Shown in pieces: positions 23,250-44,883 of a stretch of 46,454 nt of DNA. The stretch covers positions 1 to 46,454 of the IMG/VR virus record IMGVR_UViG_3300027852_000059, one strand, 5' to 3'. A program made the position numbers and the translations under genes. Each line of letters opens with the position of its first letter. Within the stretch, counting starts at the first letter, position 1. Origin of the DNA: a virus. Below the pieces are notes generated by a model that was not told the DNA's origin, did not search any database, and saw only the letters and a list, made by a program, of their open reading frames with translations.

Positions 23250-23275
23250 AGCCCTGGTTAAACCGGGGCTTTTTT
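23250..23275 (+). terminator. Intrinsic terminator after the capsid gene
   Basis: AGCCCTGG-TTAAA-CCGGGGCT followed by TTTTT. Confidence 0.65.
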
Positions 23276-28954: not shown

Positions 28955-29611
28955 ATGGAACAAACAATAGATTATTTTTATAAGAAAAATTCATTAGATG
29001 GAAGTGTGATTTTAGATGTTGCGGGTAAGCCTGTTTTTGACACTCGCCCACGCGATACATTAACACTTGCTGATTTACAAAAAGATATTACAGACGGCAG
29101 ACCAGAAAAGGGATTATTAGCCACAGCGCGTAAAGTGGCTATCGGTCTTAATTGGGATATATACGATAGTTATATAAAACAGTACAGCGACTATTTAACT
29201 GAATGTAATCGTATCAATGACATTAATAACGCACTGGTGGCCGATGAAGACGGTAATACACCAGACGATACCCCGTTGCCAACTGAGCCAACAATAGCCC
29301 CGTTTGAGCCGTCCACGGTCGATAGCGTAATGGCTATTGTCGCTGATACGTTAAACGATATTCAGCGTGAAAAAGATAAACGTGCAGCATTCACATATAA
29401 AGATGTTGTTTGTTCGGTTTGTGAGTCTGACCAAAACGGGTGGTTTGCATTGAGTGATTGGATACGTGACGATTTAGCCGATGGCCATGAATTTCAGCCA
29501 TTCCCGTTCAATATGGAGAATGGTAATTCTGTTTTGATAATGTCATTAGAAGAATGGAATGAATTTAAAGCGCTAAGTAAGGCAAACAGAAAAGCGTTTT
29601 TTGTAGATTAG
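28955..29611 (+). CDS. Hypothetical tail-associated protein
   Basis: 218 aa following the fibre candidate. Followed by a terminator. Confidence 0.45.
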   Translation: MEQTIDYFYKKNSLDGSVILDVAGKPVFDTRPRDTLTLADLQKDITDGRPEKGLLATARKVAIGLNWDIYDSYIKQYSDYLTECNRINDINNALVADEDGNTPDDTPLPTEPTIAPFEPSTVDSVMAIVADTLNDIQREKDKRAAFTYKDVVCSVCESDQNGWFALSDWIRDDLADGHEFQPFPFNMENGNSVLIMSLEEWNEFKALSKANRKAFFVD

Positions 29612-31553: not shown

Positions 31554-32014
31554 TTAAAATTATTAGCCATTTTCATAAGGCTAGTGATATAGCCGTACAA
31601 GGTGTGGTAAATCGTTGTCATACTGATTTATTGGCTATGTCTTCTCAAGCGCTGAAAACCCAATTTTCTGATACGCACAAAATTGTCTTTATTGTGAATA
31701 CCCAAAATAATAAAACCAAGGGCGTAGTTTTGCTGCATTTAGTCGATCAGCATTCAGCGAATATTTTGTTTTTTGGACATAAAGGGTTTGTGACTAAATC
31801 TCTTATAAAAAAGGTATATCAGACCGCTTTTGATGACTTTGATTTATGCAGAGTGACAGCCAAAATATACACCGACAATGTCACCTCTTTATCAATCGCC
31901 AAACGATTAGGGTTTGTTTTTGAGGGGACCTTAAGGCAAGTTAAACCGGGTTGTGATTTGCACATGTTAAGTATGTTACCTGGTGAGTGTCCGTTTGTTG
32001 GGGGTGTTCAATGA
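31550..32014 (+). CDS. GNAT-family N-acetyltransferase (RimJ/RimL-like)
   Basis: ATGA overlap with the upstream gene. The C-terminal ...NVTSLSIAKRLGFVFEGTLRQ is typical of RimJ/L-type GNATs. Confidence 0.65.
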   Translation: MIKIISHFHKASDIAVQGVVNRCHTDLLAMSSQALKTQFSDTHKIVFIVNTQNNKTKGVVLLHLVDQHSANILFFGHKGFVTKSLIKKVYQTAFDDFDLCRVTAKIYTDNVTSLSIAKRLGFVFEGTLRQVKPGCDLHMLSMLPGECPFVGGVQ

Positions 32015-32460
32015 TACGCCCTGGCATACTCGCAGATATACCCGACATTATCGAACTTGGCTTACATGTTTTAACCAATAGTGCCTATCAGTTAGCCCCA
32101 AACGTCGATAAAGCAGCCGCTAAATTTAAACAAGCCATAAAAAATCCTAATATGTTTTGTGTTGTTGCCGAAAACCAAACCGGTGATGTAGTGGGTGTAT
32201 TGGTCATTAATATGTCTGAATCTTGGTTGTCGGATGACCACACCGCCCATGACGCCGTTTTTTATATCCATCCATCTTATGTAAATAAAGCCCCGTTTAT
32301 GATCAAGCGCGCATTGTCTTGGGTGTCAGCTAGACCATCAATAAAACAATTTCATTTAGGGATCACTTCCGGTTATGCCAATACCACAAGAACCGGCCAA
32401 CTATATCAACGCTTGGGATTTTCTCAGGTTGGTGAAAATTACTTAAAAATAATGAGGTAA
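32011..32460 (+). CDS. GNAT-family N-acetyltransferase (second, divergent copy)
   Basis: ATG 32011 overlaps the previous TGA. Contains IRPGILADIPDI...VVGVLV...GQLYQRLGFSQVGENY. Confidence 0.6.
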   Translation: MIRPGILADIPDIIELGLHVLTNSAYQLAPNVDKAAAKFKQAIKNPNMFCVVAENQTGDVVGVLVINMSESWLSDDHTAHDAVFYIHPSYVNKAPFMIKRALSWVSARPSIKQFHLGITSGYANTTRTGQLYQRLGFSQVGENYLKIMR

Positions 32461-32463
32461 ACC

Positions 32464-33078
32464 ATGAGCAATGTAATTGAAAAAATATTCGACCCAATTG
32501 AGGACCTAGTAAATGACATAGGCGATGGCCTAGAAGATGTTATTGAAAGTGATGTATTTAAAACCGTTGCTATCGGTGCCGCTGTTTATTTTGGCGGGGC
32601 CGGGTTGATTGGATTAAGTAATGGAACCGGGTTTATGGCGGGCATGTCGAGTGCCGGCTCCACTTGGAGTAGTGCGCTAGGTTTTAGTGAGGCCGTAGCA
32701 GGAACAACCGAAGTCGCCGCCGTCGCCGGTGATACTGCCGCCGCTGCCGAAGTTGCTGCAGGGGGCGGCAATGCGGTTAATACAATAAGTGCGGTGGGAA
32801 ATACAACCCAAGGAATGACAGCCGGTGATGCCATGATGGGTGCCGCAAAATTACAAGCCGCGACGCAGGGTGTCGGTATAGCTGTTAACGCCTATGGTGA
32901 ACACATGGCCGAAGAAGAACGCGAAGAAGAACGCGACAAGCAACAGTTTTTTGGGATGAATCGTAATGGTGAGGGCGGTCAAGTATACAAACCACTTGCG
33001 TATCGTCCTGGTACTCGCAAGCCTGGCCAAGTTCAATCTGCAGTAAACCAAACCCGTCGCTTAGACGATAACTTATAA
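32464..33078 (+). CDS. Gly/Ala-rich membrane-associated internal virion protein candidate
   Basis: 204 aa. TM-like FKTVAIGAAVYFGGAGLIGL, then a long G/A/T-rich segment. Confidence 0.5.
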   Translation: MSNVIEKIFDPIEDLVNDIGDGLEDVIESDVFKTVAIGAAVYFGGAGLIGLSNGTGFMAGMSSAGSTWSSALGFSEAVAGTTEVAAVAGDTAAAAEVAAGGGNAVNTISAVGNTTQGMTAGDAMMGAAKLQAATQGVGIAVNAYGEHMAEEEREEERDKQQFFGMNRNGEGGQVYKPLAYRPGTRKPGQVQSAVNQTRRLDDNL

Positions 33079-33089
33079 AAGGGGCTCCC

Positions 33090-33635
33090 ATGATAACTAA
33101 TAGACCTAATCCACCTCAACAAGCCCCTGATGCCGCGCAATCACCAGAACAGCAGCAAGCCTCTGGTGGTAAAGCGAGTGAGGGCCAAAATAAACAACTT
33201 AAACAATTGGTTGAGGCTGCATTAATGATCATTCATTCCGAAAAGTCCGGTGCGTCAATTCATAAAGCGGTAGTGTCGGCTCAAGACCCGATTGAGGGGA
33301 TAGCAAAAGCCACTATGACGATTTTGCGACGTATTGAAGTTAAAGCGAAAAAAGTAGATGACGCGGTACGTATGGAATTGGCCCGTCAAATATTGAATGA
33401 ATTAACAAAACTTTCTATCACTGCCGGCATATTAACCAAAGAGCAGTTAACGCCAGAATTCATTAAAGCGTTGATCGGTAAGGTTATGCAATTGTACTTA
33501 TCTAATCGAGCAAGTTCCGGTCAATTGGGTAAAAAACAATTATCTTCAATGGTCGAAAGTGGGCGTAAGTATGCGGGCCAAAACCCGGATAAATTCGCCG
33601 ACATGACTGATTTAATGGGCCAACAAGAGGGCTAA
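33090..33635 (+). CDS. Hypothetical internal virion protein candidate
   Basis: 181 aa. Assigned by operon position only. Confidence 0.5.
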   Translation: MITNRPNPPQQAPDAAQSPEQQQASGGKASEGQNKQLKQLVEAALMIIHSEKSGASIHKAVVSAQDPIEGIAKATMTILRRIEVKAKKVDDAVRMELARQILNELTKLSITAGILTKEQLTPEFIKALIGKVMQLYLSNRASSGQLGKKQLSSMVESGRKYAGQNPDKFADMTDLMGQQEG

Positions 33636-33638
33636 ATC

Positions 33639-34727
33639 ATGGCGTTATCTTCAATTGTAAAAGGGTTAGGCCAAGCTATATCGGCCTCGGGTTCAATATT
33701 GGCAGAGGGGAATCTAAATCAAATTCGTCAAAACAGCATAGATGCTCGATGGAAAACAGAACAGGAAACATCTAAAAACCGCTTTGATGATGAAATGGAT
33801 TTTAGAAAAAAACAACTGCAAAGCCAGGAAGAACAATCGTCTAAGGCGGTATTGTCGGCTGAAAATCGCCATAAAGATAACGTTGAATTAAATGAAAGAC
33901 AGCAAACCCATAAAGAAAAACACGATAGTGAAGTTTTAATATCGAGCAAGGCTGAAAACTTACAATCGTTTATCGGTAAACAGGTCAGTGCATTAAGCGA
34001 CAAACGCGAAGAATTACAAACTTCTTTGCAATCCGGGTTGATTTCACAAGATGAGGCTAAAGTACGTTATGCCTCATTACAGCGCCAAGAACAATCTATT
34101 GTTGAACAGGCGGTCAAAGGTAATCCTGAGTTGCTAAAACAAACTATTTTTGCAAACTGGTTGCCAGAATTGGATGACGTGAGCACCCCCGACACCCCGG
34201 CTAACCCGTTAGCATCCAATCAAAATATTCCAGGCAGCAATTCGCCATTACCAGGTAACAATCAAATACCGTCTAAAGATGAAATGCTAAATAATACCGG
34301 TACAGAAATGGTGAAAGAAAAAACGTACCCGGTTAACCCATTCCAACGCCCTAAAACTGAAAGTAAGCCGGTTAACCCAAATCGTGTTGCGTTAGCTGTT
34401 GATACAGCAGAGTTACCGGAACATTTACAACCAATGGGCCGCAAAGCTAAGTCAACGTTAAAAGGTCGCCCGTCAGAGTTAAAAGAACGCAATGTATTTA
34501 ATGAGCTAAAGCTACTTGATAACGACAAATACGCAAAATTAATGACGTTATTACAAGATCCGCCAGAGCATGTAACCCGCGAAAAGATAAGTAAATACCA
34601 TCCTAGCTTAACGAAAGAACAACGCCAGGATAGATCGCTTTATCTTGAGTTTGCCAAAAAGAAAGAGTCGGTATTTAAGTTAGCCCGTTTCTTTGCGCCA
34701 ACTGTTCAACAATACGCCCACAACTAA
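33639..34727 (+). CDS. Hypothetical internal virion protein candidate (charged, coiled-coil-like)
   Basis: 362 aa. Assigned by operon position only. Confidence 0.5.
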   Translation: MALSSIVKGLGQAISASGSILAEGNLNQIRQNSIDARWKTEQETSKNRFDDEMDFRKKQLQSQEEQSSKAVLSAENRHKDNVELNERQQTHKEKHDSEVLISSKAENLQSFIGKQVSALSDKREELQTSLQSGLISQDEAKVRYASLQRQEQSIVEQAVKGNPELLKQTIFANWLPELDDVSTPDTPANPLASNQNIPGSNSPLPGNNQIPSKDEMLNNTGTEMVKEKTYPVNPFQRPKTESKPVNPNRVALAVDTAELPEHLQPMGRKAKSTLKGRPSELKERNVFNELKLLDNDKYAKLMTLLQDPPEHVTREKISKYHPSLTKEQRQDRSLYLEFAKKKESVFKLARFFAPTVQQYAHN

Positions 34728-34742
34728 TAAGAGTTTAATTAT

Positions 34743-37700
34743 ATGAATTACCTTTTTAACGAGACTTTTGAAGAATTTAGCGGAAAGTCAAATGTCGTCG
34801 CTGATCCAGATCGCAACACGAGTGTTTTTGGTGATACGGTTGATATGGCTCAACGTGGTTTAGCCCAAGGCGTCGCGGGGATATTTGATTTTGTGGGGGC
34901 TGATGGCGTCGCGGATAGTTTGAATAATTGGGCTGATAGTCAAATGTCGCAATTATCAGACGAGGGCCAAACGTCCATGTCTAAAGAATTCTTTACCGAA
35001 GACGAACAAGGTAATTTAAAAGCGGGTGAGGCATTAACAGACGTTCGTGCCTGGTGGTTGAATTTGGTATCAACGGCGGGCCAATTTGCGAGTACTGGCG
35101 GTGCTGCCGGTTTAGGTCTAAAAGGGGCCTCGATGGCCACAAAGTTTGCAAACGCTGCAGACAAAACCAAAAAAATTATAGGTGTTGGTGCGTTTGGTGC
35201 CACCGGGGGTATGTCAGCAACGGGACAAATGGAGTCTCAAGCTAGGGCGTTAGTTGATGATTTCGACATGGAAACATTAAAATCTTCCACACGATTTAGA
35301 GAAATTTACCAATCGGTGAATGATGAAAACCCGGATTTTGATAACGTAAAATTGTGGGAGGCGTCTAAGGATAAATTAAAGCTGCAGTTAGCGCGTGATG
35401 TAAAAACAGACCCTAAAGTATTACTAAGTAATTTTGCGTTGTCGGCTATCTCGGACCCTATCATTGGTAAGGCATTTACTAAACGTATCGCGAACTCGAT
35501 AATAAAATCAGCCGGTAAAGGGGCGTTAGCCGAGGGTGCCACAGAAACAATACAGGGTGGTATTGAAAGCCTAGCGGTAAATCAAGTGGCGCAATCCGTA
35601 GATCCTAGCATTGACCCTATGGCCGGTGTTAAAGCTGCAGCATTAACCGAGGGCTTAATAGGTGGCTCAATGGGGGCAACGATAGCCGGCGGCGGTGCTA
35701 TGTTAGATCGTCCTAAAAAATTAGAGGCCCCAAAAACCGGCCATGAAAACTTAGACCAAGTACTAGCCCAGGGCGTTGAACAAGAAAACCAACGCCAGGA
35801 ACAAGCGTTTAATAATAAAGCCGCTCAGTCTGCTACTGAGTCACAACCACAAGACCCTATTGTATCAACCCAAAATGACAGCGTTACAACAGTTAGTACC
35901 CCACGGTCTATTTTACCAAGACCGTTCACTAAAATAGACAGTCAGCCGTTATCACCGGTCAGTGCTGCCGTTCAAACAGGAATAGCCGTAAACGATGACC
36001 AACAAAAGGTTAATACACCGGTTAAACCTACCCCTGTTGAGATCCCAACACTAAACGAATTTAGTGAGGCCGAAACGGCCGCGTTTTTAAATGTTATTGA
36101 GCTAGCCCAAAAGCAGCATCCTAAATATTACAAACGTAGCAAGTTGGAATTTGACCGCACTAATAATCAGGCAGCATTTATTGATGGGGTGACAAAGTTA
36201 GCCAACAATGATCCGACTTATTTATCATTAAATAAAAAAATTGAAGAACAGGGAATTGAACAGACCAAAGCGAATGTTGAGCTACAAGCCCAAACGAAAT
36301 TTTTAAAAAAACAGCAAGAAGACGAGGCCGAAAAAGTCCGTTTGCGAGCTGAATTTATCGACCGACTAGTAAATCAACCTAAAAGAGATAGGGATTATCC
36401 GGCCGCACTGGCACAACATAACGCTAAGGTCGATTTAGACAGCTCTATACGTAACAATGTCGAACAATCAAAGCAGAGTCGACCAGGGAAAGCATTTAAG
36501 AAGTCTTTATCAGAGTTGCGAGCGGAATTAAAACCAAAAAGAAAACATTTAAAGCAGTTGTTAGCCGCAAATAAAGCGACTAAACAAATGCAGATGCGAA
36601 TAGACCAATCTATTGCTGCAGAAAAATTGCACTCCGGAAAACCGGTAGATATAAATGTATATGTGCCAAACCCGGCAATGAAAGAGGCATTTAGCAAAGC
36701 GTTATCACCAGAATTAAAAGAACGTGTCGCAAAGATAGACATGGCCACAAATAAAGAGCTATTAAAAATACAAGATAAACGCCGTCGCAAAGAGCAAGAG
36801 TTAGCTATATCGAACGCTATCAAAACTTGGGTAGCAGATGAAAATGGTTTGTATTCTGAGCAATATAGCTCAATGCCACAAAATTATAACGTTGAACTAA
36901 AAGGCCCGGATTATGAAACAGAACAAGATACCAGAGAAGATACCAATGCGAACATTAGCACCAATATTGAAAGCGAAACGGTTGAGAATGCAAGCATTGC
37001 TGAACCAACGGAAGATGCCGTAAAAAAGCCCTTAAAGGCAGATAATGTTGATCTGTCCACTCATGTCGCTAACGAGGCCGAGTATCACAGAGAGTTAGCA
37101 GAGCAAGCCTATTCTCATTCTAATAGATATGGAGGTCGAGTTAGTCAAAGTAATTACGTTAAATACATTAATGATACGTATGAACAATTGGACCAGGATT
37201 TAAACCCCGAACAAAAAACGCTATTAGATGACGAGATCAAAAAATTAAAATCATCTTACCTTGAAGAAGATAAAAATTATTTATCATCGCGCAGTGGTGT
37301 AGTCGGCGCGCATATTGCCGGGAAAAGTAATTTCAATGCGAAACAAGCGAACAGTCGAAGTAAATCAGATGATCGGGCCTCGGATAGTTTTGATTCTTGG
37401 AAACGTCAACAAGTGGCCCGCATTAACGTTGCGTTATCCAAAGCAAGAACGCCAGAGCAAAACCAAGAGATAAAAGATAAAAACGCTAACAAGGTATTTG
37501 TTAATGATTGGCGTGAATTCTTATCTTCTCTAGGTGCTATGACGGAAAAGGGATTTAACAAGCGTTTGTTAATGCCTGGTTTAACTCGCGCATGGGAAAC
37601 ATTAAAACAACATGATAGTGAGAAAGTACTCGGTATCTTGAATAAAGCCGAGGCAGTATTTCAGCAAGACGGTACAAGTATAGCGAAAGCAATAGGCGCT

Positions 37701-40700
37701 AAGAGTTTGTTAGCTAAAGAAATAAATGCATACATGTTAGATAGTACACCTAACAAGTTGGTTGACTCTGTTGATAAGTTAAATGCAAGTGAAAGTACAG
37801 AAGTTAATTCAAATGAAAGTACAGAAGTTAATTCAAATGAAAGTACAGAAGTTAATTCAAATGAAAGTACAGAAGTTAATTCAAATGAAAGTACAGAAGT
37901 TAATACAAGTGAAAGTACAGAAGTCAATGCAGGTGAAAGTACAGAAGTTAATGCAAATGAATTAAATGTAAGTGAACGGACAGATAACGAATCCACCCCG
38001 GAGTTATCAACAAAAACCGTTGATAACAATGTGGATGAAACCGTTGAGGACGAGCTAGAGCTTTCCTCAGAGGATATAGTGGAAATTGAATCTAAACATG
38101 TCAAGCGTAGATTATCCGAGCGATTACTTATGGATCGCCCGGCGATTGAATTGGATGGCAGTTTTGAGGGGGACTTTCAAGACTTGGCTGATTATGCAAG
38201 TCGTTTACGTATCGAGGCTACGGGGCATGGACGTACAAAGTCTGATTTAATTAGAGCGATAGATGAACAAAACGAACCGTTTTTAATTGCGTCAATTTTA
38301 AAAGCTGAGTACGAGGATTTATCATCTAAAGGTTTGGTCCCAACGCATTTAGGGACCGCCAACAATGATCGGTACTTTACCCGCAATCAATTGTTTAAAT
38401 TAGGGTTGGATGATGGCTCAACTAAATTTAACCGTTTGAAAGCGTTAACTGGCGCATACACTGATCCAATTAAGCCGCTTGTAGGATTGGATAAATCACA
38501 AATAGAATTAGATTATTTAGAGCAGTTGTTAAACCAAGATGAATCTTTATCTAACCAGGTAAGGGATCGCCCTTGGTTGTCCACTGTAACCGTCAGATTA
38601 ACGCAATTACGTCGTGACCTGGCTCAACATAAGGATAAGTACTTAAATGCCCGTAAAGCGATTTACAAGGCGAGTTTGTCCAGGGATGCAAATTTTTCAG
38701 ATAAAGAATTTCAAAGTTGGCTGCAATCAAATCTTGCTAGTTTTAAAGCACAACATAACGTTGATTATCTCATGCCATCTAAAGAGCAAGCCTTTACTGA
38801 GTTTACAGAGCGAGCGACGACTCGATTAACTAAGAATAAAGAAAAGATTGAAGATTGGACCAAAGCAACGTTGTTTGACTTCCTGGACGGTGAGGACCAA
38901 CTACATCGCGGGGAATTACCATTTGATGAATACAAAGAAATGGGGCAAGCCTTAAGCGATAAGCGAGAGGCGGTACGCGCTGAAATATCCGGGTTAACAA
39001 AGACTAAGATTGGTGAAACTCGCGGTATGTTTTGGGCGGCAAGGCATGGAAGTGATAAAAAGTCCACGATGGTTGAAAGTGCATTTGAAAATCTATTTCG
39101 TTCGTTGAACGTTAACCGTGAGGGTATGACGGTGCTAATCGGCATGGGCTTTGGCGAAAAAAGAGGCCCGGATCATTACATAGACCAAATAAAAGAAAAA
39201 TTTGATGCAATAGACCGCACACAATATGAAACCTGGCAGCAATCCATTAAGGACGATAGGGCCGCTGCAGAGGCAGAACGTGAGCGAAAAGCGCAAGCAT
39301 TAGAAGACCCGCAATCTATTGAAGACTTCCACCGTTTGTATAATTTAAAAGGTGCTAAAGGCATGACTGCCGAACAGTGGGCCATATTTGATAGATTGGT
39401 TGCTGATGAAAACTTAGCCATGCAAGAAAAATCAAAAACAAGAACGGTTGAGGCTATTAACGAAGATGTTAATTATACGTTGCATGAAACCAAGCATAGT
39501 AAAAAAGACATTGATTTATTCGTCGTATCGTTAGGCGATAGGGTTGATAAAGATGTTTACAGAGAATTAAATACAAAAGCCAAGCAGTTAGGCGGTTATT
39601 ATTCTAGTTATAATAAGGCCGGCGCAATCCCAGGCTTTCAATTTAAAAGTGAAGAAACCCGTCAAGATTTTTTAAGTTTATTAGCCGGCGATACCGTTGA
39701 GCGTACAAAAGTAGAGAAAGACACTGCAGAGACATTAATGGATAAGGCGATACGTCTGGAAGAAAAAGCCAGAGAAGAACTAGAGCGCCCTAGAAATACC
39801 AACACATCAAGACGTGCAAGCATGGCCGCAAGTTCAATTGATTCTGCAGAGCGTAATATGGCCATTGCTCAAGAGTTAAAATCGCTATCCGTGGCGATTT
39901 CATCCGGGCGGGCTAAGTACTTAAAAGGTGTCAGTCAAAACACCCAACGCGACCTATTGGCTCAACTCTTTAATCGTTTACAGCGTGAGGCTGCAAAAGA
40001 TATAGACACTCGCGATAAACACATGGAACCAAGTAAACACCCTGTTTATGGTTATGATACTGGACATAAGTGGCGCGCCGGTGTGCCAACAGAAGAAAAA
40101 GTAAGACATGCTAAATACCCGTTTGTTACGTGGGAAAAGGCCGCGTTGCATAAGTACCTGGATAAAATGGAAACTGCAGACGGTTACAAATTGGCAGCGC
40201 AAGCATTAAGAAAGTCATTAAATCAAACTAAATCTGAAAACGCATTCATAGGTAATCATCGTAGTTTTGATAAATTTTTATCGTATTCATTACAGCACGA
40301 ATCAGCGCACCCATTTATTAAAAGTGAGGCTCAAGACTACAACCGGTTACAAAAGTTGGGCATAAACGGGACGCAACATTTACGTGCGGCCCTAGTTGAA
40401 TATGATTTATTAACCAGTGACGCTGAAACCGTTGTTGTTAAAAGTCCTGCAGCAGAGGCCCTTAAATACTCGCATTTAAAGGGTATGTACAAAGATAACG
40501 ATTTTCATAATTCGCCTAATGCGGTTGTTGAGGAAGTGATCGGCTATGCTGACATTGAGCCAGGCATGAGAGTGTTAGAGCCGTCGGCCGGTGTTGGCCA
40601 TATTGCCGACGCCGTTGCTGATATAGTTGGCAAAGATGGCGTCGATACGGTGGAAATGGGCTTTGAGCTACGAAAAATGCTTGAGGGTAAAGGTTATAAA

Positions 40701-43700
40701 CCTGAGTCCGGGGATTTCTTAGAGTATGATCCAGGAGGTGAAATATACGACCGGGTTGTAATGAATCCACCATTTAGTAAAGACCAGGATATTGATCATA
40801 TTTTACATGCATATTCAATGTTAAAACCTGGCGGTAAATTGGTGGCCGTGACTAGCTCAATGGCCGGTGATAGATCCAATAAAAAAAATCAAGCATTTAG
40901 AACGTTTATGGATGAACACGCCGCTGATGAAATATCGTTACCCGAGGGGAGTTTTAAGGATGCTATTAATCCTACTGGCGTAAATACTAAAATAATTGTT
41001 ATAGATAAGCCAAGTAGTAACCAGGAACAACAGCCATCAAGTAATGAAGATGTTGTATTTAACTTGGAAGAACAAACCCATAATAGCGGCCTTTCTGATA
41101 AAGACATGTCGAAAGTTGTCACCGAATTTTTAAATGTGTATAAAGGAGCTAAGATATTTAAAGGCGGCATACACATTGGAGGCGTTGATGAACTCTACAG
41201 CAAAGAATTACTCGAATCCCGACCAGAAGTTAGAGACTTGGCAAGAGGTTCGTACACGCCAAGAACTGACACCTTGCATATCGTCCGAGGACGGTTTAAG
41301 GATCGCGCCGACTTACTGCAGACCTTACGGCATGAGATATTGGTTCACAAAGGTTTGGGCGTTTTTCACAAAGAATACGTCGAAAACTTCCTAAGCCAAG
41401 TAAAATTAACTCGCGGCAGTAAAAACAGCTATATAAAAAATATATGGGATGAAGTATCACAAACATATAAAGATGAATCTGATTACGTACAAGCCGAAGA
41501 ATTTTTGGCTCGTGTTGCCGAAGATTTAGACGACACTGGTTTTGGTCAGTTCGTTAATAACAAAATCATTCATCCAATTATTAAAGCTATTCGTCGAATG
41601 CTTGAGTCAATTGGATTGTCATTAAGTACTCAGCCGTCAGAGATTAAACAAGAGCTTTATCGCATAACCGGGGCTTTACGTAAAGGCATTGAACCTCGTA
41701 ATCGTCAGAAACAGGACGCGGGTTTAATAGGTAAGCGAACGTATTTTAATATTGCGCCGCCGGCTGATAGTCAGTTATTGCCAAAACACCTCAATAAAGA
41801 AAGCGTTAATAAACATTACAATTCTATTAAAGCCAAATTACGGCCATTTATGTTGTCGTTATTACCACGTCGATATTTAAAAGATTTAGCCGGGGATACT
41901 TTACCTGCAATCTCGATATATGAACGTGCCGTAGAGCAGATGGACGCCGATAGAAACGAGCTGTTAAACGTTGCCGCTGACACAATGGTAAAATGGCGCA
42001 AATTGGCTGACAGTAATCCAGAAAGCGCGAAAGTGATGGCTGATCTTATGCACGATGCTACATTGGCAAACGTGGACCCGTCAGAACGTTATGAGCAGCT
42101 TGTAAACAAACAAGAATTAGACTTAGCAAAAAAACAATATCAGGCCGCGAAAAAGGACCAAAGCGATCTGTTAGCGATAGATAGAGAGTTAAATAACTTT
42201 AATGCATTGAAAGAGCGCGCTTTTGCAGAGGGAGAACGGGGCGCTATGTATACCATTCTTGCCCCTAAATTCAGGACGTTACCAACGGAGTTCCAGGACC
42301 TATTTAAAGAAGTGGTTAAATCATACCGAGATCAGAATAAAGCTAGATTAAAGGCATTGCTAGAACGTATAGAGTTCACCCCGACAGATGTTAACCATAA
42401 AAGTAAAATGCGTGACTTAATACGCATGAAGTTTGAGCAATCAGAGCGTGATTTTTATGTACCACTGCAGCGTTTTGGTGACTACTTTGGTTCGGTAAAG
42501 GACAACAACGGTGACATTGTTGAATTTAGTCTTTTTGAAAGCCAGGCCGAGCAAGAAACCTGGATTAATGAGCGTAAAACAAATTTCAAAGGCCAGGGTT
42601 ATACGATACGCGGCGGTAAGAAAAAAGAACACATGAATGAATTTGAGCGTGTGAATCCGGGTTTCATAACTGAAATAATGCCATTGTTAAATGAAGAACA
42701 GCAAGACGAAATATATCAATTGTACTTACACGCCATGCCTGATTTAAGTATGCGTAAACACTTTATTCACCGTAAAGGTGTTAAGGGTTTTCATACGGAC
42801 GCGTTACGTGCCTATGCAAAAAATATGTTTCATGGCAGCTATCAAATCGCCAGGCTAAAACATTCTCATGTTATGGAGGGTGCGTTATCAGCAATGCGCT
42901 TACAGGTAGACAGTAAAGCTAATATCCGAGAGGCGAATAAGGCGAGTGATATAGCGTCGGAAATAGAACAGCGTCATGCATGGATAGTATCACCAACGGG
43001 ATCTAGCATTGCTCATAAAGCGACTCAGTTTGGTTTTGCCTGGTACTTAGGGGCAACGCCGGCAGCGGCATTACTCAACGTCACCCAAACACCTATCATT
43101 GCATTACCGGTGATCGGTTCTCGTTATGGATTTACAGCCACCACAAAAGAGTTAACCAGGGCGGGTGTCGATTTTATCGGAGGGAAAGGCCACATTGAAA
43201 AAGCGTTGTCGGGCGACGAGTTAGAAATGGTAAATGAATTATTACGCCGAGGTGTATTAGATAAAACTATGAGCCATGATTTAGCCGGTGTGTCAGAGGG
43301 CGGCATTCAACACAATCCAACAACTCATAAATGGATGGGGTATATAAGTGCGATGTTCCACCACGCGGAGCGTTTTAATCGGGAAGTAACCAGTTTAGCC
43401 GCGTATCGCCTAGCTCGTAAAAAAGGAATGGACCATATAAGCGCTATAGACGAGGCCGCAAATTTAACATGGGAAAGCCACTTTGATTACGCCAGTGCAA
43501 ATAAAGCCAGATTTATGCAGAATGATACGGCCAAGGTCCTATTTTTGTTCCGGCAGCATAGCCTTAACATGTCAGCCCGTTTGTACCTGGACTTTATGAA
43601 GATATTGAAACCAAAAAATAAAGCAGAACGTGTTCAAGGGACTAAACAATTTTTAGGGGTGCTTGGTATGACAGGTATGTTTGCCGGTGTGGCCGGTTTG

Positions 43701-44498
43701 CCGTTGTACTCGGTAGTAACAGGGTTAGCTGAAATGTTTGGCGACGATGAAGACGAGCCGTGGGACGCAAATATTGCAATTCACCAAGGGCTAAACGACA
43801 TGTTTGGGAAAGAAGTCGGCGGCGCGTTAATGCATGGTGCGTTTAATGCGCTCACCCCTGCAGACATGGCAAGTCGAACGTCACTTAATAACCTATGGTT
43901 TAGAGAGCCGTACAGAGAATTGGAGGGCCGCGACTCGGTACAGTATTATGCTGAACAACTACTAGGACCTATTTTCGGGGTGGCCTTGTCGTTTGGTACT
44001 GGTAAATCATTAATAAATGAGGGGCAAACATATAGGGGGGTTGAATCTATGTTGCCTAAATTTGCCAGGGATATATTAAAAGCGGGGCGTTATAGTACGG
44101 ACGGCGTACAAAACTTAAGTGGTGCCGATGTTGTCGCATTAGAAGATGTTGGGATAGCAGATTGGGCGACGCAAGCCTTTGGTTTTTCACCGTCTAAAGT
44201 GGCCGAACGCTACGAACAAAATAGCGCGGTGAAAGGCTCAGAACAAAGGATTTTACAACGCCGTTCGTTGTTATTGAATAGATATGCATTAGGTAAGCGT
44301 ATAGATGACAGAGCGTTCTTAATTAAAGTAAAGACCGAAATCCAACAATTTAACAAGGCGAACCCCAATCACCCTATTACCGAAAAAACGGTAATACAGT
44401 CATTAAAACGCCGTCAGAGTTATGCAAATAAAGCCAAAAACGGCGTTAACCTAAATGATCGTTATAGATATTTAATCGAAGAAAACAGCATTCACTAA
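34743..44498 (+). CDS. Giant (3251 aa) polyvalent-type virion / DNA-ejection protein with an embedded N6-adenine methyltransferase-like domain
   Basis: A single uninterrupted ORF. G/A-rich N-terminus, ESTEVNxx repeats, VLEPSAGVGHI plus NPPF methyltransferase motifs, a PLQRFG motif, and C-terminal hydrophobic helices. A strong terminator follows it. Confidence 0.8.
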   Translation: MNYLFNETFEEFSGKSNVVADPDRNTSVFGDTVDMAQRGLAQGVAGIFDFVGADGVADSLNNWADSQMSQLSDEGQTSMSKEFFTEDEQGNLKAGEALTDVRAWWLNLVSTAGQFASTGGAAGLGLKGASMATKFANAADKTKKIIGVGAFGATGGMSATGQMESQARALVDDFDMETLKSSTRFREIYQSVNDENPDFDNVKLWEASKDKLKLQLARDVKTDPKVLLSNFALSAISDPIIGKAFTKRIANSIIKSAGKGALAEGATETIQGGIESLAVNQVAQSVDPSIDPMAGVKAAALTEGLIGGSMGATIAGGGAMLDRPKKLEAPKTGHENLDQVLAQGVEQENQRQEQAFNNKAAQSATESQPQDPIVSTQNDSVTTVSTPRSILPRPFTKIDSQPLSPVSAAVQTGIAVNDDQQKVNTPVKPTPVEIPTLNEFSEAETAAFLNVIELAQKQHPKYYKRSKLEFDRTNNQAAFIDGVTKLANNDPTYLSLNKKIEEQGIEQTKANVELQAQTKFLKKQQEDEAEKVRLRAEFIDRLVNQPKRDRDYPAALAQHNAKVDLDSSIRNNVEQSKQSRPGKAFKKSLSELRAELKPKRKHLKQLLAANKATKQMQMRIDQSIAAEKLHSGKPVDINVYVPNPAMKEAFSKALSPELKERVAKIDMATNKELLKIQDKRRRKEQELAISNAIKTWVADENGLYSEQYSSMPQNYNVELKGPDYETEQDTREDTNANISTNIESETVENASIAEPTEDAVKKPLKADNVDLSTHVANEAEYHRELAEQAYSHSNRYGGRVSQSNYVKYINDTYEQLDQDLNPEQKTLLDDEIKKLKSSYLEEDKNYLSSRSGVVGAHIAGKSNFNAKQANSRSKSDDRASDSFDSWKRQQVARINVALSKARTPEQNQEIKDKNANKVFVNDWREFLSSLGAMTEKGFNKRLLMPGLTRAWETLKQHDSEKVLGILNKAEAVFQQDGTSIAKAIGAKSLLAKEINAYMLDSTPNKLVDSVDKLNASESTEVNSNESTEVNSNESTEVNSNESTEVNSNESTEVNTSESTEVNAGESTEVNANELNVSERTDNESTPELSTKTVDNNVDETVEDELELSSEDIVEIESKHVKRRLSERLLMDRPAIELDGSFEGDFQDLADYASRLRIEATGHGRTKSDLIRAIDEQNEPFLIASILKAEYEDLSSKGLVPTHLGTANNDRYFTRNQLFKLGLDDGSTKFNRLKALTGAYTDPIKPLVGLDKSQIELDYLEQLLNQDESLSNQVRDRPWLSTVTVRLTQLRRDLAQHKDKYLNARKAIYKASLSRDANFSDKEFQSWLQSNLASFKAQHNVDYLMPSKEQAFTEFTERATTRLTKNKEKIEDWTKATLFDFLDGEDQLHRGELPFDEYKEMGQALSDKREAVRAEISGLTKTKIGETRGMFWAARHGSDKKSTMVESAFENLFRSLNVNREGMTVLIGMGFGEKRGPDHYIDQIKEKFDAIDRTQYETWQQSIKDDRAAAEAERERKAQALEDPQSIEDFHRLYNLKGAKGMTAEQWAIFDRLVADENLAMQEKSKTRTVEAINEDVNYTLHETKHSKKDIDLFVVSLGDRVDKDVYRELNTKAKQLGGYYSSYNKAGAIPGFQFKSEETRQDFLSLLAGDTVERTKVEKDTAETLMDKAIRLEEKAREELERPRNTNTSRRASMAASSIDSAERNMAIAQELKSLSVAISSGRAKYLKGVSQNTQRDLLAQLFNRLQREAAKDIDTRDKHMEPSKHPVYGYDTGHKWRAGVPTEEKVRHAKYPFVTWEKAALHKYLDKMETADGYKLAAQALRKSLNQTKSENAFIGNHRSFDKFLSYSLQHESAHPFIKSEAQDYNRLQKLGINGTQHLRAALVEYDLLTSDAETVVVKSPAAEALKYSHLKGMYKDNDFHNSPNAVVEEVIGYADIEPGMRVLEPSAGVGHIADAVADIVGKDGVDTVEMGFELRKMLEGKGYKPESGDFLEYDPGGEIYDRVVMNPPFSKDQDIDHILHAYSMLKPGGKLVAVTSSMAGDRSNKKNQAFRTFMDEHAADEISLPEGSFKDAINPTGVNTKIIVIDKPSSNQEQQPSSNEDVVFNLEEQTHNSGLSDKDMSKVVTEFLNVYKGAKIFKGGIHIGGVDELYSKELLESRPEVRDLARGSYTPRTDTLHIVRGRFKDRADLLQTLRHEILVHKGLGVFHKEYVENFLSQVKLTRGSKNSYIKNIWDEVSQTYKDESDYVQAEEFLARVAEDLDDTGFGQFVNNKIIHPIIKAIRRMLESIGLSLSTQPSEIKQELYRITGALRKGIEPRNRQKQDAGLIGKRTYFNIAPPADSQLLPKHLNKESVNKHYNSIKAKLRPFMLSLLPRRYLKDLAGDTLPAISIYERAVEQMDADRNELLNVAADTMVKWRKLADSNPESAKVMADLMHDATLANVDPSERYEQLVNKQELDLAKKQYQAAKKDQSDLLAIDRELNNFNALKERAFAEGERGAMYTILAPKFRTLPTEFQDLFKEVVKSYRDQNKARLKALLERIEFTPTDVNHKSKMRDLIRMKFEQSERDFYVPLQRFGDYFGSVKDNNGDIVEFSLFESQAEQETWINERKTNFKGQGYTIRGGKKKEHMNEFERVNPGFITEIMPLLNEEQQDEIYQLYLHAMPDLSMRKHFIHRKGVKGFHTDALRAYAKNMFHGSYQIARLKHSHVMEGALSAMRLQVDSKANIREANKASDIASEIEQRHAWIVSPTGSSIAHKATQFGFAWYLGATPAAALLNVTQTPIIALPVIGSRYGFTATTKELTRAGVDFIGGKGHIEKALSGDELEMVNELLRRGVLDKTMSHDLAGVSEGGIQHNPTTHKWMGYISAMFHHAERFNREVTSLAAYRLARKKGMDHISAIDEAANLTWESHFDYASANKARFMQNDTAKVLFLFRQHSLNMSARLYLDFMKILKPKNKAERVQGTKQFLGVLGMTGMFAGVAGLPLYSVVTGLAEMFGDDEDEPWDANIAIHQGLNDMFGKEVGGALMHGAFNALTPADMASRTSLNNLWFREPYRELEGRDSVQYYAEQLLGPIFGVALSFGTGKSLINEGQTYRGVESMLPKFARDILKAGRYSTDGVQNLSGADVVALEDVGIADWATQAFGFSPSKVAERYEQNSAVKGSEQRILQRRSLLLNRYALGKRIDDRAFLIKVKTEIQQFNKANPNHPITEKTVIQSLKRRQSYANKAKNGVNLNDRYRYLIEENSIH
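37791..37958 (+). repeat. Seven in-frame tandem 24-bp units (gaaagtacagaagttaattcaaat) encoding ESTEVN(SN/TS/AG/AN)
   Basis: Read directly. The first four units are identical. The repeat lies inside the giant CDS. Confidence 0.9.
40572..40775 (+). other. Methyltransferase motifs I (VLEPSAGVGHI) and IV (NPPF) within the giant CDS
   Basis: Motif I codons start at 40572 (aa 1944). NPPF is at 40764-40775 (aa 2008-2011). The order I then IV fits gamma-class amino-methyltransferases. Confidence 0.7.
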
Positions 44499-44507
44499 GG
44501 TTTGTAG

Positions 44508-44550
44508 CGCCATATTAGTTCTTTAGTGTATCTAATGTGGCGTTTTTTTT
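44508..44550 (+). terminator. Strong intrinsic terminator ending the late operon
   Basis: CGCCATATTAG-N13-CTAATGTGGCG (11-bp stem with one G-T pair) followed by 8 T. Confidence 0.8.
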
Positions 44551-44703
44551 GATCGTTCACTTTACCTTTGGCGTAAGATCCTTTAAATTGATCTCGCTTT
44601 TAAGAGGGGGATAATATATTGTTGCCTTTCTTAGTAAGAGACAAGATTGTTAAATTAGAGGCGAAAAAAAACCGCCTATAAGACGGTTTCTCAACAATTT
44701 GAT

Positions 44704-44839: not shown

Positions 44840-44883
44840 GCAAATTGTATTTATTAGTAAATATAATTATAAGAATATTAAAC

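What the first reader, a model, noticed from the sequence alone, without database searches (positions are those of the whole stretch)
34743..44498. 3251-aa polyvalent-type virion protein closing the internal-protein operon
Seen in sequence: one uninterrupted 9.76-kb ORF, about 21 percent of the genome. It is the last gene of an operon of candidate internal/ejection proteins and is followed by the strongest terminator in the window. It has a G/A-rich N-terminus, an in-frame tandem repeat block, and methyltransferase motifs near aa 1944-2011. It has a PLQRFG motif at 42462-42479 (aa 2574-2579). It also has paired hydrophobic helices around 43.0-43.75 kb (FGFAWYLGATPAAALLNVTQTPIIALPVIG, FLGVLGMTGMFAGVAGLPLYSVVTGL). 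Established knowledge: phages and conjugative elements encode very large multi-domain polyvalent proteins that enter the recipient cell with the DNA (P1 DarB is one example), and RefSeq uses a PLxRFG-domain name for a class of such giants. Inference: this protein is packaged, ejected and membrane-inserting, and carries one or more enzymatic payloads. Most of its length has no domain I can name.
Basis: partly seen in the sequence, partly recalled or inferred. Interest (0 to 1): 0.75.

Follow-up and report, generated by a model that had tools for sequence, protein, structure and literature searches.

The report
Giant cysteine-free ejected phage cargo protein
This 3251-residue gene most likely encodes a giant protein that a short-tailed phage packs in its head and injects with its DNA; it has the same front end as the phage N4 injected RNA polymerase but carries a DNA/RNA adenine methylase instead, so it is a new member of a known class, not a new kind of system.

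Summary
It is not a misassembly: the same protein occurs in two other public assemblies, one differing only by three 8-aa repeat units.

Its parts, in order:
- a ~300-aa N-terminal helical domain, absent from Pfam
- ~1050 aa with no relatives, ending in the ESTEVNSN repeat
- a ~720-aa N6-adenine methyltransferase module
- an HExxxH (putative zincin) domain
- LPD39 plus the PLxRFG domain (717 bits)

Main results:
- The N-domain heads at least 183 clusters of 2000-5155-aa proteins.
[quoted passage not shown] That N4 domain enters lipid nanodiscs and anchors the ejected polymerase.
- It also occurs in phi24B gp47 and Bcep22 gp75; phi24B gp47 and JC1 gp69 (79% identical to Bcep22 gp75) were found by mass spectrometry in purified virions.
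- The family almost excludes cysteine: 20 Cys in 336,784 residues. N4 gp50/51/52 and T7 gp15/16 have none.

Packaging and ejection are therefore well supported, though indirectly. The C-terminal hydrophobic helices are not shown to enter membranes. P1 DarB is only a loose analogue. Verdict: new member of a known kind (polyvalent or giant ejection proteins).

The parts
34743..44498 (+). Giant ORF, 3251 aa, no cysteine
   Evidence: The identical protein is on JGI contig 3300002180. P0082 is identical except for 24 fewer residues in the repeat.
34800..35732 (+). N-terminal helical domain (aa ~20-330), homologous to the Schitoviridae vRNAP (N4 gp50) N-terminal domain. Inferred role: ejectosome and inner-membrane anchor
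   Evidence: Exhaustive HMMER finds 183 clusters, nearly always at the N-terminus of 2000-5155-aa proteins. No Pfam match. hhalign against 8 vRNAP N-terminal domains gives Prob 98.1%, E 1.3e-13. Shuffle control: 32.5 bits against 4.3 or less. The profile hits phi24B gp47 (E 3e-46) and Bcep22 gp75 (E 1.5e-30). The AF2 model is a helical bundle, pLDDT 75, with no PDB fold match.
35040..35252 (+). G/A-rich segment (aa 100-170) inside the N-domain. It aligns with the N4 gp50 region that holds the putative membrane-spanning helices (aa 224-278)
   Evidence: Composition; low pLDDT at aa 121-150; alignments; N4 nanodisc data in PMC13434306.
35733..37775 (+). Lineage-specific K/E/A/S-rich region (aa 331-1011), no detectable relatives. 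Probably an extended or disordered spacer
   Evidence: BLAST coverage by about 240 family members is ~0. No Pfam or PDB hit.
37776..37961 (+). In-frame tandem repeat, 24 nt x 7.7 (ESTEVNSN units). Copy number varies between assemblies. Likely a flexible linker
   Evidence: P0082 has three fewer units. N4 vRNAP has a comparable 100-aa low-complexity linker after its N-terminal domain.
37962..38864 (+). Orphan region (aa 1074-1374): an acidic stretch, then a possibly globular segment. No relatives found
38865..41027 (+). Methyltransferase module (aa ~1375-2095): a conserved ~520-aa unknown region plus a ~190-aa Rossmann N6-adenine methyltransferase core with no separate target-recognition domain
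   Evidence: PHROG 15406 E 3e-178. 34% identity to the vB_Pun_Y3 giant. Stand-alone ~700-aa homologues exist. The profile matches KsgA, M.TaqI, ErmC' and HsdM in the PDB.
40578..40775 (+). Methyltransferase motif I (EPSAGVGH, 40578-40601) to motif IV (NPPF, 40764-40775). The upstream motif X reads FHNSP where relatives have FFPTP
41055..41702 (+). HExxxH domain (aa ~2105-2320), a putative zincin-like metallopeptidase. H2197, E2198 and H2202 (nt 41331-41348) and E2253 are invariant or nearly so
   Evidence: Found in 124 of 241 local relatives, usually ending ~870-1000 aa before the C-terminus. Not in Pfam or PDB by sequence. Iyer et al. 2017 describe an HEXXXH metallopeptidase clade in polyvalent proteins.
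41832..42437 (+). LPD39 domain (aa 2364-2565)
   Evidence: Pfam PF18858, E 8.2e-35, 120.7 bits against a cut-off of 27.
42453..44465 (+). PLxRFG domain (aa 2571-3241), all-alpha, no solved structural relative
   Evidence: NF032893, 717.6 bits. AF2 model of aa 2360-3251 has pLDDT 89.8 and pTM 0.87. Foldseek against the PDB gives a best E of 0.26. BFVD matches the C-terminal segments of other phage giants.
43029..43118 (+). First hydrophobic segment (aa 2763-2792). It is conserved, with near-invariant Pro/Asn/Gln, and is modelled as three short helices
43650..43727 (+). Second hydrophobic, Gly-rich segment (aa 2970-2995)
44506..44550 (+). Intrinsic-terminator-like hairpin (13 bp, loop 13) plus U8
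30153..34727 (+). Upstream cluster. Four cysteine-free candidate ejection-protein ORFs (30153-31553, 32464-33078, 33090-33635, 33639-34727) are interrupted by two Cys-containing GNAT acetyltransferase genes (31550-32014, 31987-32460)
   Evidence: The layout is syntenic with vB_Pun_Y3 and Bcep22. The 466-aa ORF is weakly similar to the Y3 519-aa ORF.

Best explanation
The gene encodes a giant ejection (internal virion) protein of a short-tailed phage, possibly a phage-plasmid. It belongs to the same modular class as the N4 virion RNA polymerase, phi24B gp47 and Bcep22 gp75.

Proposed mechanism, with the status of each step:
1. The protein is made late, as the last product of the ejection-protein operon, and a few copies are packed inside the capsid. 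Inferred from homologues shown to be in virions.
2. At infection it follows the smaller, cysteine-free ejection proteins through the tail channel as a loosely folded, beads-on-a-string chain. The near-total absence of cysteine would prevent disulfide cross-links in the virion and periplasm. Inferred from composition and from the N4 model.
3. The N-terminal domain docks on the trans-envelope conduit and inner membrane. The homology to the N4 N-terminal domain is shown here; the function is transferred from N4.
4. The long low-complexity spacer and the ESTEVNSN repeat let the downstream modules reach the cytoplasm. Inferred.
5. The cargo is an N6-adenine methyltransferase module. It most likely modifies the incoming phage DNA, or possibly host RNA or DNA, to blunt restriction. 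The enzyme class is shown by sequence; the substrate is inferred.
6. The HExxxH domain probably cuts the chain to release or mature modules. This rests on the motif and the literature only.
7. The conserved LPD39-PLxRFG end module is the family's C-terminal chassis. By analogy with the N4 C-terminal region, which is required for encapsidation, its most likely role is capsid incorporation or ejectosome assembly. Channel formation by its hydrophobic helices is a less supported alternative.
For: Gene position and synteny:
- The gene order is terminase, portal, capsid, tail, small cysteine-free ORFs, giant, terminator.
- vB_Pun_Y3, Bcep22, phi24B and N4 share this order.

N-terminal domain:
- It heads 183 clusters of giant proteins.
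- Its profile hits phi24B gp47 (E 3e-46) and Bcep22 gp75 (E 1.5e-30).
- phi24B gp47 and JC1 gp69 were detected in purified virions; JC1 gp69 is 79% identical to Bcep22 gp75.
- It is homologous to the vRNAP N-terminal domain: hhalign Prob 98.1%, E 1.3e-13; 32.5 bits against 4.3 or less in 2000 shuffles; reciprocal phmmer E 2e-6.
- The N4 N-terminal domain enters nanodiscs and anchors the ejected vRNAP (PMC13434306).

Cysteine exclusion:
- The giant has 0 Cys in 3251 aa, against 0.99% in the window's other ORFs (P about 1e-14).
- 108 family giants hold 20 Cys in 336,784 aa, and 97 of them have none.
- N4 gp50, gp51 and gp52 have 0; T7 gp15 and gp16 have 0.
- Stand-alone homologues of the methyltransferase module do contain Cys.

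Cargo and C-terminal modules:
- Methyltransferase motifs I and IV, PHROG DNA-methyltransferase families, and PDB profile hits to adenine-N6 methyltransferases.
- The HExxxH domain sits at a fixed position upstream of the C-terminal module in most relatives.
- The PLxRFG domain is nearly confined to phages and phage-plasmid-sized replicons: 73 phage records and 12 'plasmid' records, 11 of them non-mobilizable.
- Where the giant is split into several ORFs, LPD39-PLxRFG is the last one.
Against: - There are no proteomic or functional data for this phage or for any PLxRFG-type member that I could find.
- The virion-verified relatives carry the LPD38-type C-terminal module, not PLxRFG. A link between the two module types is only suggestive: the motifs are collinear, but hhalign gives Prob 2%.
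- The C-terminal modules show no detectable similarity to the N4 C-terminal domain, so the encapsidation role is pure analogy.
- The zincin assignment has no significant sequence or structure match.
- Methyltransferase motif X is atypical (FHNSP), so activity is not guaranteed.
- One third of the protein has no relatives, and its role is unknown.
Confidence: 0.72

Rival explanations
1. The protein is mainly a structural conduit. It is packaged and ejected, but its essential job is to build the inner-membrane and cytoplasmic part of the DNA ejectosome, like T7 gp16. The PLxRFG hydrophobic helices would form the channel, and the enzyme domains would be accessory or decayed.
For: - The C-terminal ~900 aa are the most conserved part.
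- There are two or three hydrophobic segments.
- The BFVD fold search gives a remote match to a protein annotated as internal virion protein D in Roseobacter phage CRP-4 (E 9e-7, TMq 0.32).
- phi24B gp47 was proposed to form a transperiplasmic conduit.
- Methyltransferase motif X is divergent.
Against: - AF2 models the hydrophobic segments as short helices within a confidently modelled (pTM 0.87) all-alpha domain.
- No PDB match was found in a library stated to hold entries released up to April 2026; no ejectosome component appeared among the matches.
- Motifs I and IV of the methyltransferase are intact and conserved.
- In N4, the N-terminal domain is the part that associates with the membrane, not the C-terminus.
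Confidence: 0.15
2. The protein is not packaged. It is a late-expressed cytoplasmic multi-enzyme that methylates progeny DNA or manipulates the host, and it only happens to sit at the end of the structural operon.
For: - Stand-alone homologues of the methyltransferase module exist.
- There is no direct virion evidence for this protein.
Against: - The N-domain is shared with ejected or virion-detected giants.
- Family-wide cysteine exclusion is not expected for a cytoplasmic enzyme, and the stand-alone methyltransferase homologues lack it.
- The position is syntenic with N4 gp50, Bcep22 gp75 and phi24B gp47.
Confidence: 0.07
3. It is a plasmid-type polyvalent protein delivered by conjugation rather than by a virion. 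The element carries plasmid-like replication and partition genes.
For: - The window has an IncFII RepA-like gene, a ParA gene and a tyrosine recombinase gene.
- About 40% of polyvalent proteins are on conjugative elements (Iyer et al. 2017).
Against: - The window encodes terminase, portal, capsid and tail proteins, and none of the ORFs I scanned matched a type IV secretion component.
- PLxRFG hits in the plasmid collection are 11 of 12 non-mobilizable and mostly 55-60 kb, which is phage-plasmid size.
- The N-domain is a phage vRNAP-type domain.
Confidence: 0.03
4. The ORF is an assembly artefact: a chimera, or a read-through of several genes.
For: - In one relative the equivalent region is split into three ORFs.
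- The repeat block could cause assembly errors.
Against: - The exact 3251-aa protein is on another public contig.
- A second assembly gives the same sequence apart from three repeat units.
- Relatives of 2000-5155 aa share the same N-to-C architecture.
Confidence: 0.01

Closest known systems
Phage N4 virion RNA polymerase gp50 (Schitoviridae giant ejection protein)
   Same: - Homologous N-terminal domain (hhalign 98%).
- Similar size, about 3300-3500 aa.
- Last gene after the small ejection-protein genes.
- No cysteine.
- A low-complexity linker follows the N-terminal domain.
- A His-Glu metal-type motif domain begins the C-terminal third (N4 HELVH at aa 2228).
   Different: - No RNA polymerase domain; the cargo is a methyltransferase module instead.
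- The C-terminal LPD39-PLxRFG module shows no detectable similarity to the N4 C-terminal domain.
- The host phage is a ~46-kb element with plasmid-like genes, not a 70-kb lytic schitovirus.
phi24B/933W gp47 and Bcep22 gp75 / JC1 gp69 (podovirus giants, several of them found in virions by proteomics)
   Same: - N-domain, HExxxH domain, terminal position in the late operon, and almost no cysteine.
- phi24B gp47 and JC1 gp69 were detected in virions; JC1 gp69 is 79% identical to Bcep22 gp75.
   Different: - Their C-terminal module is the LPD38 ('YVPFFR') type, not LPD39-PLxRFG.
- Their N-domains start at aa ~184 and ~328, after an extension.
- Their cargos differ: methyltransferase plus SNF2 helicase in Bcep22; LPD5, LPD1 and MuF-C in phi24B.
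Polyvalent proteins of phages and conjugative elements (Iyer, Burroughs, Anand, de Souza, Aravind 2017)
   Same: - Several unrelated enzymatic and LPD domains in one giant polypeptide, in a phage with a terminase-portal system.
- Contains LPD39, an adenine methyltransferase and an HExxxH peptidase-like domain.
   Different: - The N-terminal vRNAP-like domain and the PLxRFG region have no Pfam model.
- I found no mention of the family-wide cysteine exclusion in that paper.
PLxRFG domain-containing proteins (NCBIfam NF032893, 'tail-700')
   Same: Full-length match at 717.6 bits, with the motif present, at the extreme C-terminus.
   Different: Many members are ~900-1500-aa proteins made of LPD39-PLxRFG with one extra domain such as an ADP-ribosyltransferase. 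Here the module ends a 3251-aa chain.
Phage P1 DarB (capsid-packaged antirestriction protein)
   Same: A large protein with an adenine methyltransferase-type domain. P1 DarB is packaged in the head and protects incoming DNA (established knowledge).
   Different: - No SF2 helicase and no LPD36.
- tblastn with the N- and C-terminal modules listed no Escherichia or P1-type phage.
- The 'DarB-like' label comes from PHROG 10089, which matches only aa 2363-3239, the region of LPD39 and PLxRFG.

Membership tests
Polyvalent proteins (Iyer et al. 2017) | Two or more unrelated effector or LPD domains in one polypeptide | tested here: met
   LPD39 (Pfam, E 8e-35), N6-adenine methyltransferase module, HExxxH domain and PLxRFG domain.
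Polyvalent proteins (Iyer et al. 2017) | Encoded by a phage with a terminase-portal system (or by a conjugative element), in the late or structural region | tested here: met
   Terminase, portal and capsid genes lie upstream on the same strand.
Polyvalent proteins (Iyer et al. 2017) | Delivered into the recipient cell with the DNA | not testable with these tools
   Only indirect evidence: homologues are found in virions, and the protein is cysteine-free.
PLxRFG domain-containing protein (NF032893) | HMM score above the curated cut-off over the full model | tested here: met
   717.6 bits against 100; model positions 2-679 of 681; aa 2571-3241.
PLxRFG domain-containing protein (NF032893) | P-L-x-R-F-G motif | tested here: met
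   PLQRFG at aa 2574-2579. P, L, R and G are at least 90% conserved in 81 sequences.
N4-type giant ejection protein (Schitoviridae gp50) | vRNAP-type N-terminal domain | tested here: met
   hhalign Prob 98.1%, E 1.3e-13 over 261 columns, with a shuffle control and a reciprocal phmmer hit.
N4-type giant ejection protein (Schitoviridae gp50) | Single-subunit RNA polymerase domain | tested here: not met
   No RNA polymerase family in Pfam, NCBIfam or PHROG scans of the giant. Among its local relatives (including P0082, identical apart from the repeat), phmmer with the N4 RNA polymerase domain finds nothing.
N4-type giant ejection protein (Schitoviridae gp50) | N4-like C-terminal domain (needed for encapsidation) | tested here: not met
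   hhalign of the C-module profiles against the N4 C-terminal domain gives Prob 1.5-2.9%. The template was a single sequence, so sensitivity was limited.
N4-type giant ejection protein (Schitoviridae gp50) | Present in virions and ejected | not testable with these tools
   No data exist for this phage.
phi24B gp47 / Bcep22 gp75 type podovirus giants | N-domain plus HExxxH domain plus a ~660-aa C-terminal module containing LPD38 | tested here: inconclusive
   The N-domain and HExxxH domain are shared. The C-module here is PLxRFG type. Its motifs are collinear with the LPD38 type (Y-x-P-hydrophobic-x-R, then about 270-300 aa, then E-x-x-N-R), but hhalign gives only Prob 2%.
P1 DarB-like antirestriction protein | LPD36, methyltransferase and SF2 helicase triad | tested here: not met
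   No helicase or LPD36 hit at E of 1 or less. The methyltransferase is preceded by a different ~520-aa region.
P1 DarB-like antirestriction protein | Protects incoming DNA from type I restriction | not testable with these tools
   Needs genetics.
T7 gp16-type internal virion protein D | N-terminal lytic transglycosylase and the gp16 fold | tested here: not met
   No transglycosylase family was found. Foldseek against the PDB finds no match for either modelled region. There is only a remote BFVD match to a protein carrying that name.
Zincin-like metallopeptidase (polyvalent-protein clade with HEXXXH) | HExxxH on a helix plus a downstream Glu ligand in a zincin fold | tested here: inconclusive
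   H2197, E2198, H2202 and E2253 are invariant or nearly so. There is no significant Pfam or PDB match, and the fold was not modelled.

The most novel reading that the evidence does not exclude
The vRNAP-type N-terminal domain, a near-absolute ban on cysteine, and a C-terminal HExxxH plus PLxRFG/LPD38 module may together define one widespread 'cargo-ejection chassis' of short-tailed phages. On this reading the middle section is freely exchangeable: RNA polymerase in N4; methyltransferase here; helicases, ADP-ribosyltransferases, nucleases and ParB elsewhere. N4 vRNAP would then be one specialised member of a much larger family. The PLxRFG module has a confidently predicted all-alpha fold with no solved relative. 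It would be a new kind of encapsidation or inner-membrane device. Absence of cysteine would serve as a simple sequence-only predictor of ejected phage proteins.
Probability: 0.45. Interest if true: 0.65.

Novelty: new member of a known kind. Interest (0 to 1): 0.45.

Why it matters
The gene itself is another giant polyvalent phage protein, a class described in 2017, so it is not a new kind of system. Three family-level points came out of the check and may be useful:

1. **A shared front end.** The N-terminal domain links metagenomic giants, the Stx-phage protein gp47, Bcep22 gp75 and the N4 virion RNA polymerase. This suggests one delivery mechanism with exchangeable cargo. It gives N4 and DEV structural work a much wider reach, and it suggests a route to engineering phage-delivered proteins.

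2. **Cysteine exclusion as a predictor.** Experimentally established ejection proteins (N4 gp50/51/52, T7 gp15/16) have no cysteine. The same signature correctly picks out the gene cluster upstream of each giant examined here. It could be used to annotate ejection proteins, which usually have no recognisable sequence similarity.

3. **An uncharacterised fold.** The LPD39-PLxRFG module is predicted with high confidence and has no structural relative in the PDB, so it is a good target for structure and function work.

Tried and rejected
- **Full-length homologue search:** timed out.
- **Word-indexed search with the N-domain:** found nothing, probably because G/A-rich words swamped the candidate list. 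The exhaustive HMMER search solved this.
- **Near-identity DNA search in phages:** no match.
- **Foldseek against the PDB:** no meaningful match for either AF2 model.
- **Bcep22 gp75 C-terminus against the PLxRFG profile:** no support. It belongs to the LPD38-type module instead.
- **PLxRFG against LPD38-type module, profile-profile:** the motifs are collinear but Prob is only 2%. I treat this as suggestive and do not claim homology.
- **N4 C-terminal domain against our C-terminal modules:** not significant.
- **HExxxH domain against Pfam and the PDB:** only sub-threshold zincin traces.
- **Virion proteomics for a PLxRFG-type phage:** the LASTA/SJM3 paper has none, the YuA paper is not held, and the five papers that mention PLxRFG have titles and abstracts on other topics.
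- **Pasteurella phage Pmp11:** at first sight its N-domain sits right after the portal gene, like a MuF/gp7-type protein. However, the feature is annotated as a non-coding remnant that runs to the end of the 32.8-kb record, so I drew no conclusion from it.
- **Literature on cysteine-free ejection proteins:** the search found nothing relevant. This is not proof that the point is unpublished.


Full report
**1. Observation**

The ORF listing and translation confirm one uninterrupted ORF at 34743..44498 (+), with an ATG start and 3251 aa. It makes up 21.0% of the 46,454-bp window.

- PLQRFG at aa 2574-2579 (nt 42462-42479).
- Methyltransferase motif I, EPSAGVGH, at aa 1946-1953, and motif IV, NPPF, at aa 2008-2011.
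- Two hydrophobic stretches at aa 2763-2792 and aa 2970-2995.

Tandem Repeats Finder reports a 24-nt unit repeated 7.7 times at 37776-37961, which encodes ESTEVNSN-type units.

The sequence after the stop codon folds into a 13-bp hairpin with a 13-nt loop, followed by eight U (dG -16.9 kcal/mol, z = -5.2). A window-wide scan ranks it among the five best terminator candidates, not first.

The ORF is not a chimera. The identical protein is on a separate JGI metagenome contig. Another database entry, P0082 (3227 aa), is identical except that it lacks three repeat units. The repeat copy number therefore varies between assemblies.

**2. Genomic setting**

The window encodes a large terminase, a portal, a major capsid protein and tail proteins upstream on the same strand. 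A tightly packed run of ORFs from 30153 to the giant follows.

The closest phage by portal sequence is Pseudoalteromonas phage vB_Pun_Y3 (40% identity). It was described as derived from N4-like viruses (PMC11654794). Y3 has the same gene order and a 3421-aa giant in the same place.

Downstream of the terminator lies an IncFII RepA-like gene. The left end of the window has ParA and a tyrosine recombinase. The element therefore looks like a phage-plasmid or a temperate podovirus.

**3. Anatomy of the protein**

Database scans assign the C-terminal third:
- Pfam LPD39 at aa 2364-2565, E 8e-35.
- NCBIfam PLxRFG ('tail-700') at aa 2571-3241, 717.6 bits.

PHROG families place a DNA-methyltransferase module at aa ~1335-2105.

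Comparison with the Y3 giant shows three shared blocks:
- aa 29-303, 42% identity.
- aa 1385-2104, 34% identity.
- aa 2116-2286, 27% identity.

Y3 lacks LPD39 and PLxRFG. It carries ddrB-ParB, an ADP-ribosyltransferase, LPD5 and LPD1 instead. The proteins are modular, with shared ends and different contents.

*Methyltransferase module.* Stand-alone ~700-aa proteins elsewhere are homologous to aa ~1375-2095. A profile of this module matches adenine-N6 methyltransferases in the PDB: KsgA, M.TaqI, ErmC' and HsdM. The order of motif X, I and IV is that of the gamma class. In relatives motif X reads FFPTP, but here it reads FHNSP. No helicase is present.

*HExxxH domain.* The block at aa ~2105-2320 has invariant H2197, E2198 and H2202 (HEILVH, that is HExxxH) and a conserved E2252-E2253 pair.
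- It typically ends 870-1000 residues before the C-terminus.
- It matches nothing significant in Pfam or the PDB.
- Iyer et al. 2017 describe exactly such an HEXXXH clade of zincin-like peptidases in polyvalent proteins and propose autoprocessing.

*Orphan third.* Residues ~330-1380 have no relatives among about 240 family members.

**4. The N-terminal domain is the key**

An exhaustive HMMER search of 1.84 billion representative proteins with aa 1-340 found 183 clusters. Almost all start at residue ~20-50 of proteins 2000-5155 aa long. Pfam has no model for this domain.

The AF2 model is a helical bundle (pLDDT 75) with a disordered G/A-rich segment and no PDB fold match.

A profile of the domain detects it in two other giants:
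- phi24B gp47, aa 184-449, E 3e-46.
- Bcep22 gp75, aa 328-601, E 1.5e-30.

Members of this group are found in virions. phi24B gp47 was detected by proteomics and proposed to be an encapsidated ejection protein (bioRxiv 10.64898/2026.04.10.717836). JC1 gp69, which is 79% identical to Bcep22 gp75, was detected in CsCl-purified virions (PMC9144972).

- 32.5 bits on aa 200-480, against at most 4.3 bits in 2000 composition-preserving shuffles.
- A reciprocal phmmer search with the N4 N-terminal domain finds family member P0167 (E 2e-6).
- A profile-profile comparison with eight Schitoviridae N-terminal domains gives Prob 98.1%, E 1.3e-13. It aligns our aa 28-308 with N4 aa ~114-433.

For N4, the 2026 structural study reports the following (PMC13434306):
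- The N-terminal domain contains putative membrane-spanning helices (aa 224-278) and inserts into nanodiscs.
- The authors propose that it associates with gp51, based on the interaction shown for the related DEV proteins, and keeps the ejected polymerase tethered to the inner membrane.
- A ~100-aa low-complexity linker follows it.
- The rest of the protein is proposed to travel through the tail as beads on a string.

Our G/A-rich segment (aa 100-170) aligns with that membrane-associated N4 region. Our ESTEVNSN repeat and acidic stretch occupy the place of the N4 linker.

**5. Cysteine exclusion**

The giant has no cysteine, while the window's other ORFs average 0.99% (P about 1e-14). Four of the six upstream ORFs also have none. 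The two exceptions are GNAT acetyltransferases.

The pattern holds across the family and in known ejection proteins:

| Set | Cysteine content |
|---|---|
| 108 giants with the N-domain | 20 Cys in 336,784 residues; 97 have none |
| Stand-alone homologues of the methyltransferase module | up to 5 Cys each |
| N4 gp50, gp51, gp52 | 0 |
| T7 gp15, gp16 | 0 |
| T7 gp14 | 1 |
| Portal proteins, tail proteins and most capsid proteins of the same phages | contain Cys |

The same signature marks the ORFs in front of the giants of Y3, phi24B and Bcep22.

I read this as selection against disulfide formation in proteins that are stored in the virion and threaded through the periplasm. This is an inference. 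The analogy is the cysteine exclusion known for exported proteins of Gram-positive bacteria (PMC2823432, seen).

**6. The C-terminal module**

With an 81-sequence alignment, AF2 gives a confident all-alpha model of aa 2360-3251 (pLDDT 89.8, pTM 0.87).

Foldseek finds no PDB relative (best E 0.26). In BFVD it matches the C-terminal segments of other phage giants. More remotely it matches proteins named 'internal virion protein D' and 'LPD38'.

The two hydrophobic stretches are modelled as short helices and contain near-invariant Pro, Asn and Gln. They are not clean transmembrane hairpins. A switch to a membrane-inserted state cannot be excluded.

Distribution of C-terminal modules among the long N-domain giants:
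- 38 of 108 end in LPD39-PLxRFG.
- Most of the others end in a ~660-aa module with a YVPF[FY]R motif, an ExNR motif ~240-340 residues later, and Pfam LPD38 in the three members scanned.
- The motifs are collinear with those of PLxRFG, but the profile-profile score is weak.

PLxRFG occurs in 73 phage records; those listed include PEp14-like, Lastavirus and F116-like phages. It also occurs in 12 'plasmid' records, 11 of them non-mobilizable and mostly 55-60 kb. Where the giant is split into three genes, LPD39-PLxRFG is the last one.

No similarity to the N4 C-terminal domain was detected.

**7. Interpretation**

The best-supported reading is a packaged, ejected giant of the N4 vRNAP, phi24B gp47 and Bcep22 gp75 class. 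It would have an N-terminal ejectosome and membrane anchor, a long flexible spacer, an adenine-methyltransferase cargo, a probable self-processing peptidase, and a conserved C-terminal module of unknown mechanism.

What is shown here:
- the anatomy
- the homologies
- the compositional signature
- the synteny

What is inferred:
- packaging and ejection of this particular protein
- the methyltransferase substrate
- peptidase activity
- the role of PLxRFG

P1 DarB is a functional analogue at most. The 'DarB-like' label comes from a PHROG that matches only aa 2363-3239, the region of LPD39 and PLxRFG.

**8. Verdict**

The gene is a new member of a known kind. The family-level findings deserve follow-up: the shared vRNAP-type N-domain, the cysteine exclusion, and the PLxRFG fold with no solved structural relative.

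Noticed in passing
window 2478-3290 (-), 3665-4912 (+), 44845-45951 (+): The window has a ParA-type ATPase, a tyrosine recombinase and an IncFII RepA-like replication protein. The element looks like a phage-plasmid or temperate podovirus. A related contig (L005) also has RepA, ParA, a resolvase and an integrase next to its PLxRFG gene.
   Followed up: partly
window 31550-32014 and 31987-32460 (+): Two adjacent, overlapping GNAT acetyltransferase genes, both containing cysteine, sit in the middle of the cysteine-free ejection-protein cluster. A GNAT gene is in the same relative position in vB_Pun_Y3 (21064-21516) and Bcep22 (gp69). This may mean that ejection proteins are acetylated, or that the GNAT is an injected or assembly enzyme.
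   Followed up: partly
window 30153-34727 and loci L001, L006, L008, L009, L010: Absence of cysteine separates known or candidate ejection proteins from portal, tail and most capsid proteins. Examples: N4 gp50/51/52, T7 gp15/16, the Y3 519/317/216/318-aa ORFs, phi24B vb44-47, and Bcep22 gp68/70/74. It may work as a general sequence-only predictor.
   Followed up: partly
window 37776-37961: The 24-nt repeat has 7.7 copies here and three fewer units in an otherwise identical database protein (P0082). This is either real length polymorphism of the linker or an assembly collapse.
   Followed up: yes
window 44655-44700 (-): A second hairpin plus U-run lies on the minus strand (dG -13.6) about 120 nt after the plus-strand terminator. 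No sizeable minus-strand ORF ends there. It could act as a bidirectional insulator between the late operon and the RepA gene.
   Followed up: partly
window 40470-40530 (aa ~1915-1930): Methyltransferase motif X reads FHNSP where nine relatives have the near-invariant FFPTP. Motifs I and IV are intact, but this copy may have altered cofactor or substrate handling.
   Followed up: no
window 35733-38864 (aa ~330-1374): About 1050 residues, one third of the protein, have no detectable relative even among 240 family members. The only exception is one weak hit to P0083 at aa 589-749.
   Followed up: partly
window 23225-23275, 14800-14860, 21200-21255: Strong terminator-like hairpins follow the major capsid gene (ending near 23270), precede the ORF at 15080 (near 14849), and follow the ORF 20744-21178 (near 21249). 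They are as strong as or stronger than the one after the giant ORF.
   Followed up: no
L003 (Pasteurella phage Pmp11) 25867-32838: This 32.8-kb 'complete genome' has a non-coding remnant that includes the giant's N-domain directly after the portal gene and runs to the end of the record. It looks like a truncated or degraded prophage.
   Followed up: no
L001 (vB_Pun_Y3) 34438-37521: The Y3 giant is followed by a second cysteine-free 1027-aa ADP-ribosyltransferase protein. It may be a second ejected cargo protein, or a piece split off the giant.
   Followed up: no
L008 (phi24B) 29149-29190: The only two cysteines of phi24B gp47 lie in its first 13 annotated residues, just before a second Met. 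The annotated start may be about 13 codons too early.
   Followed up: no
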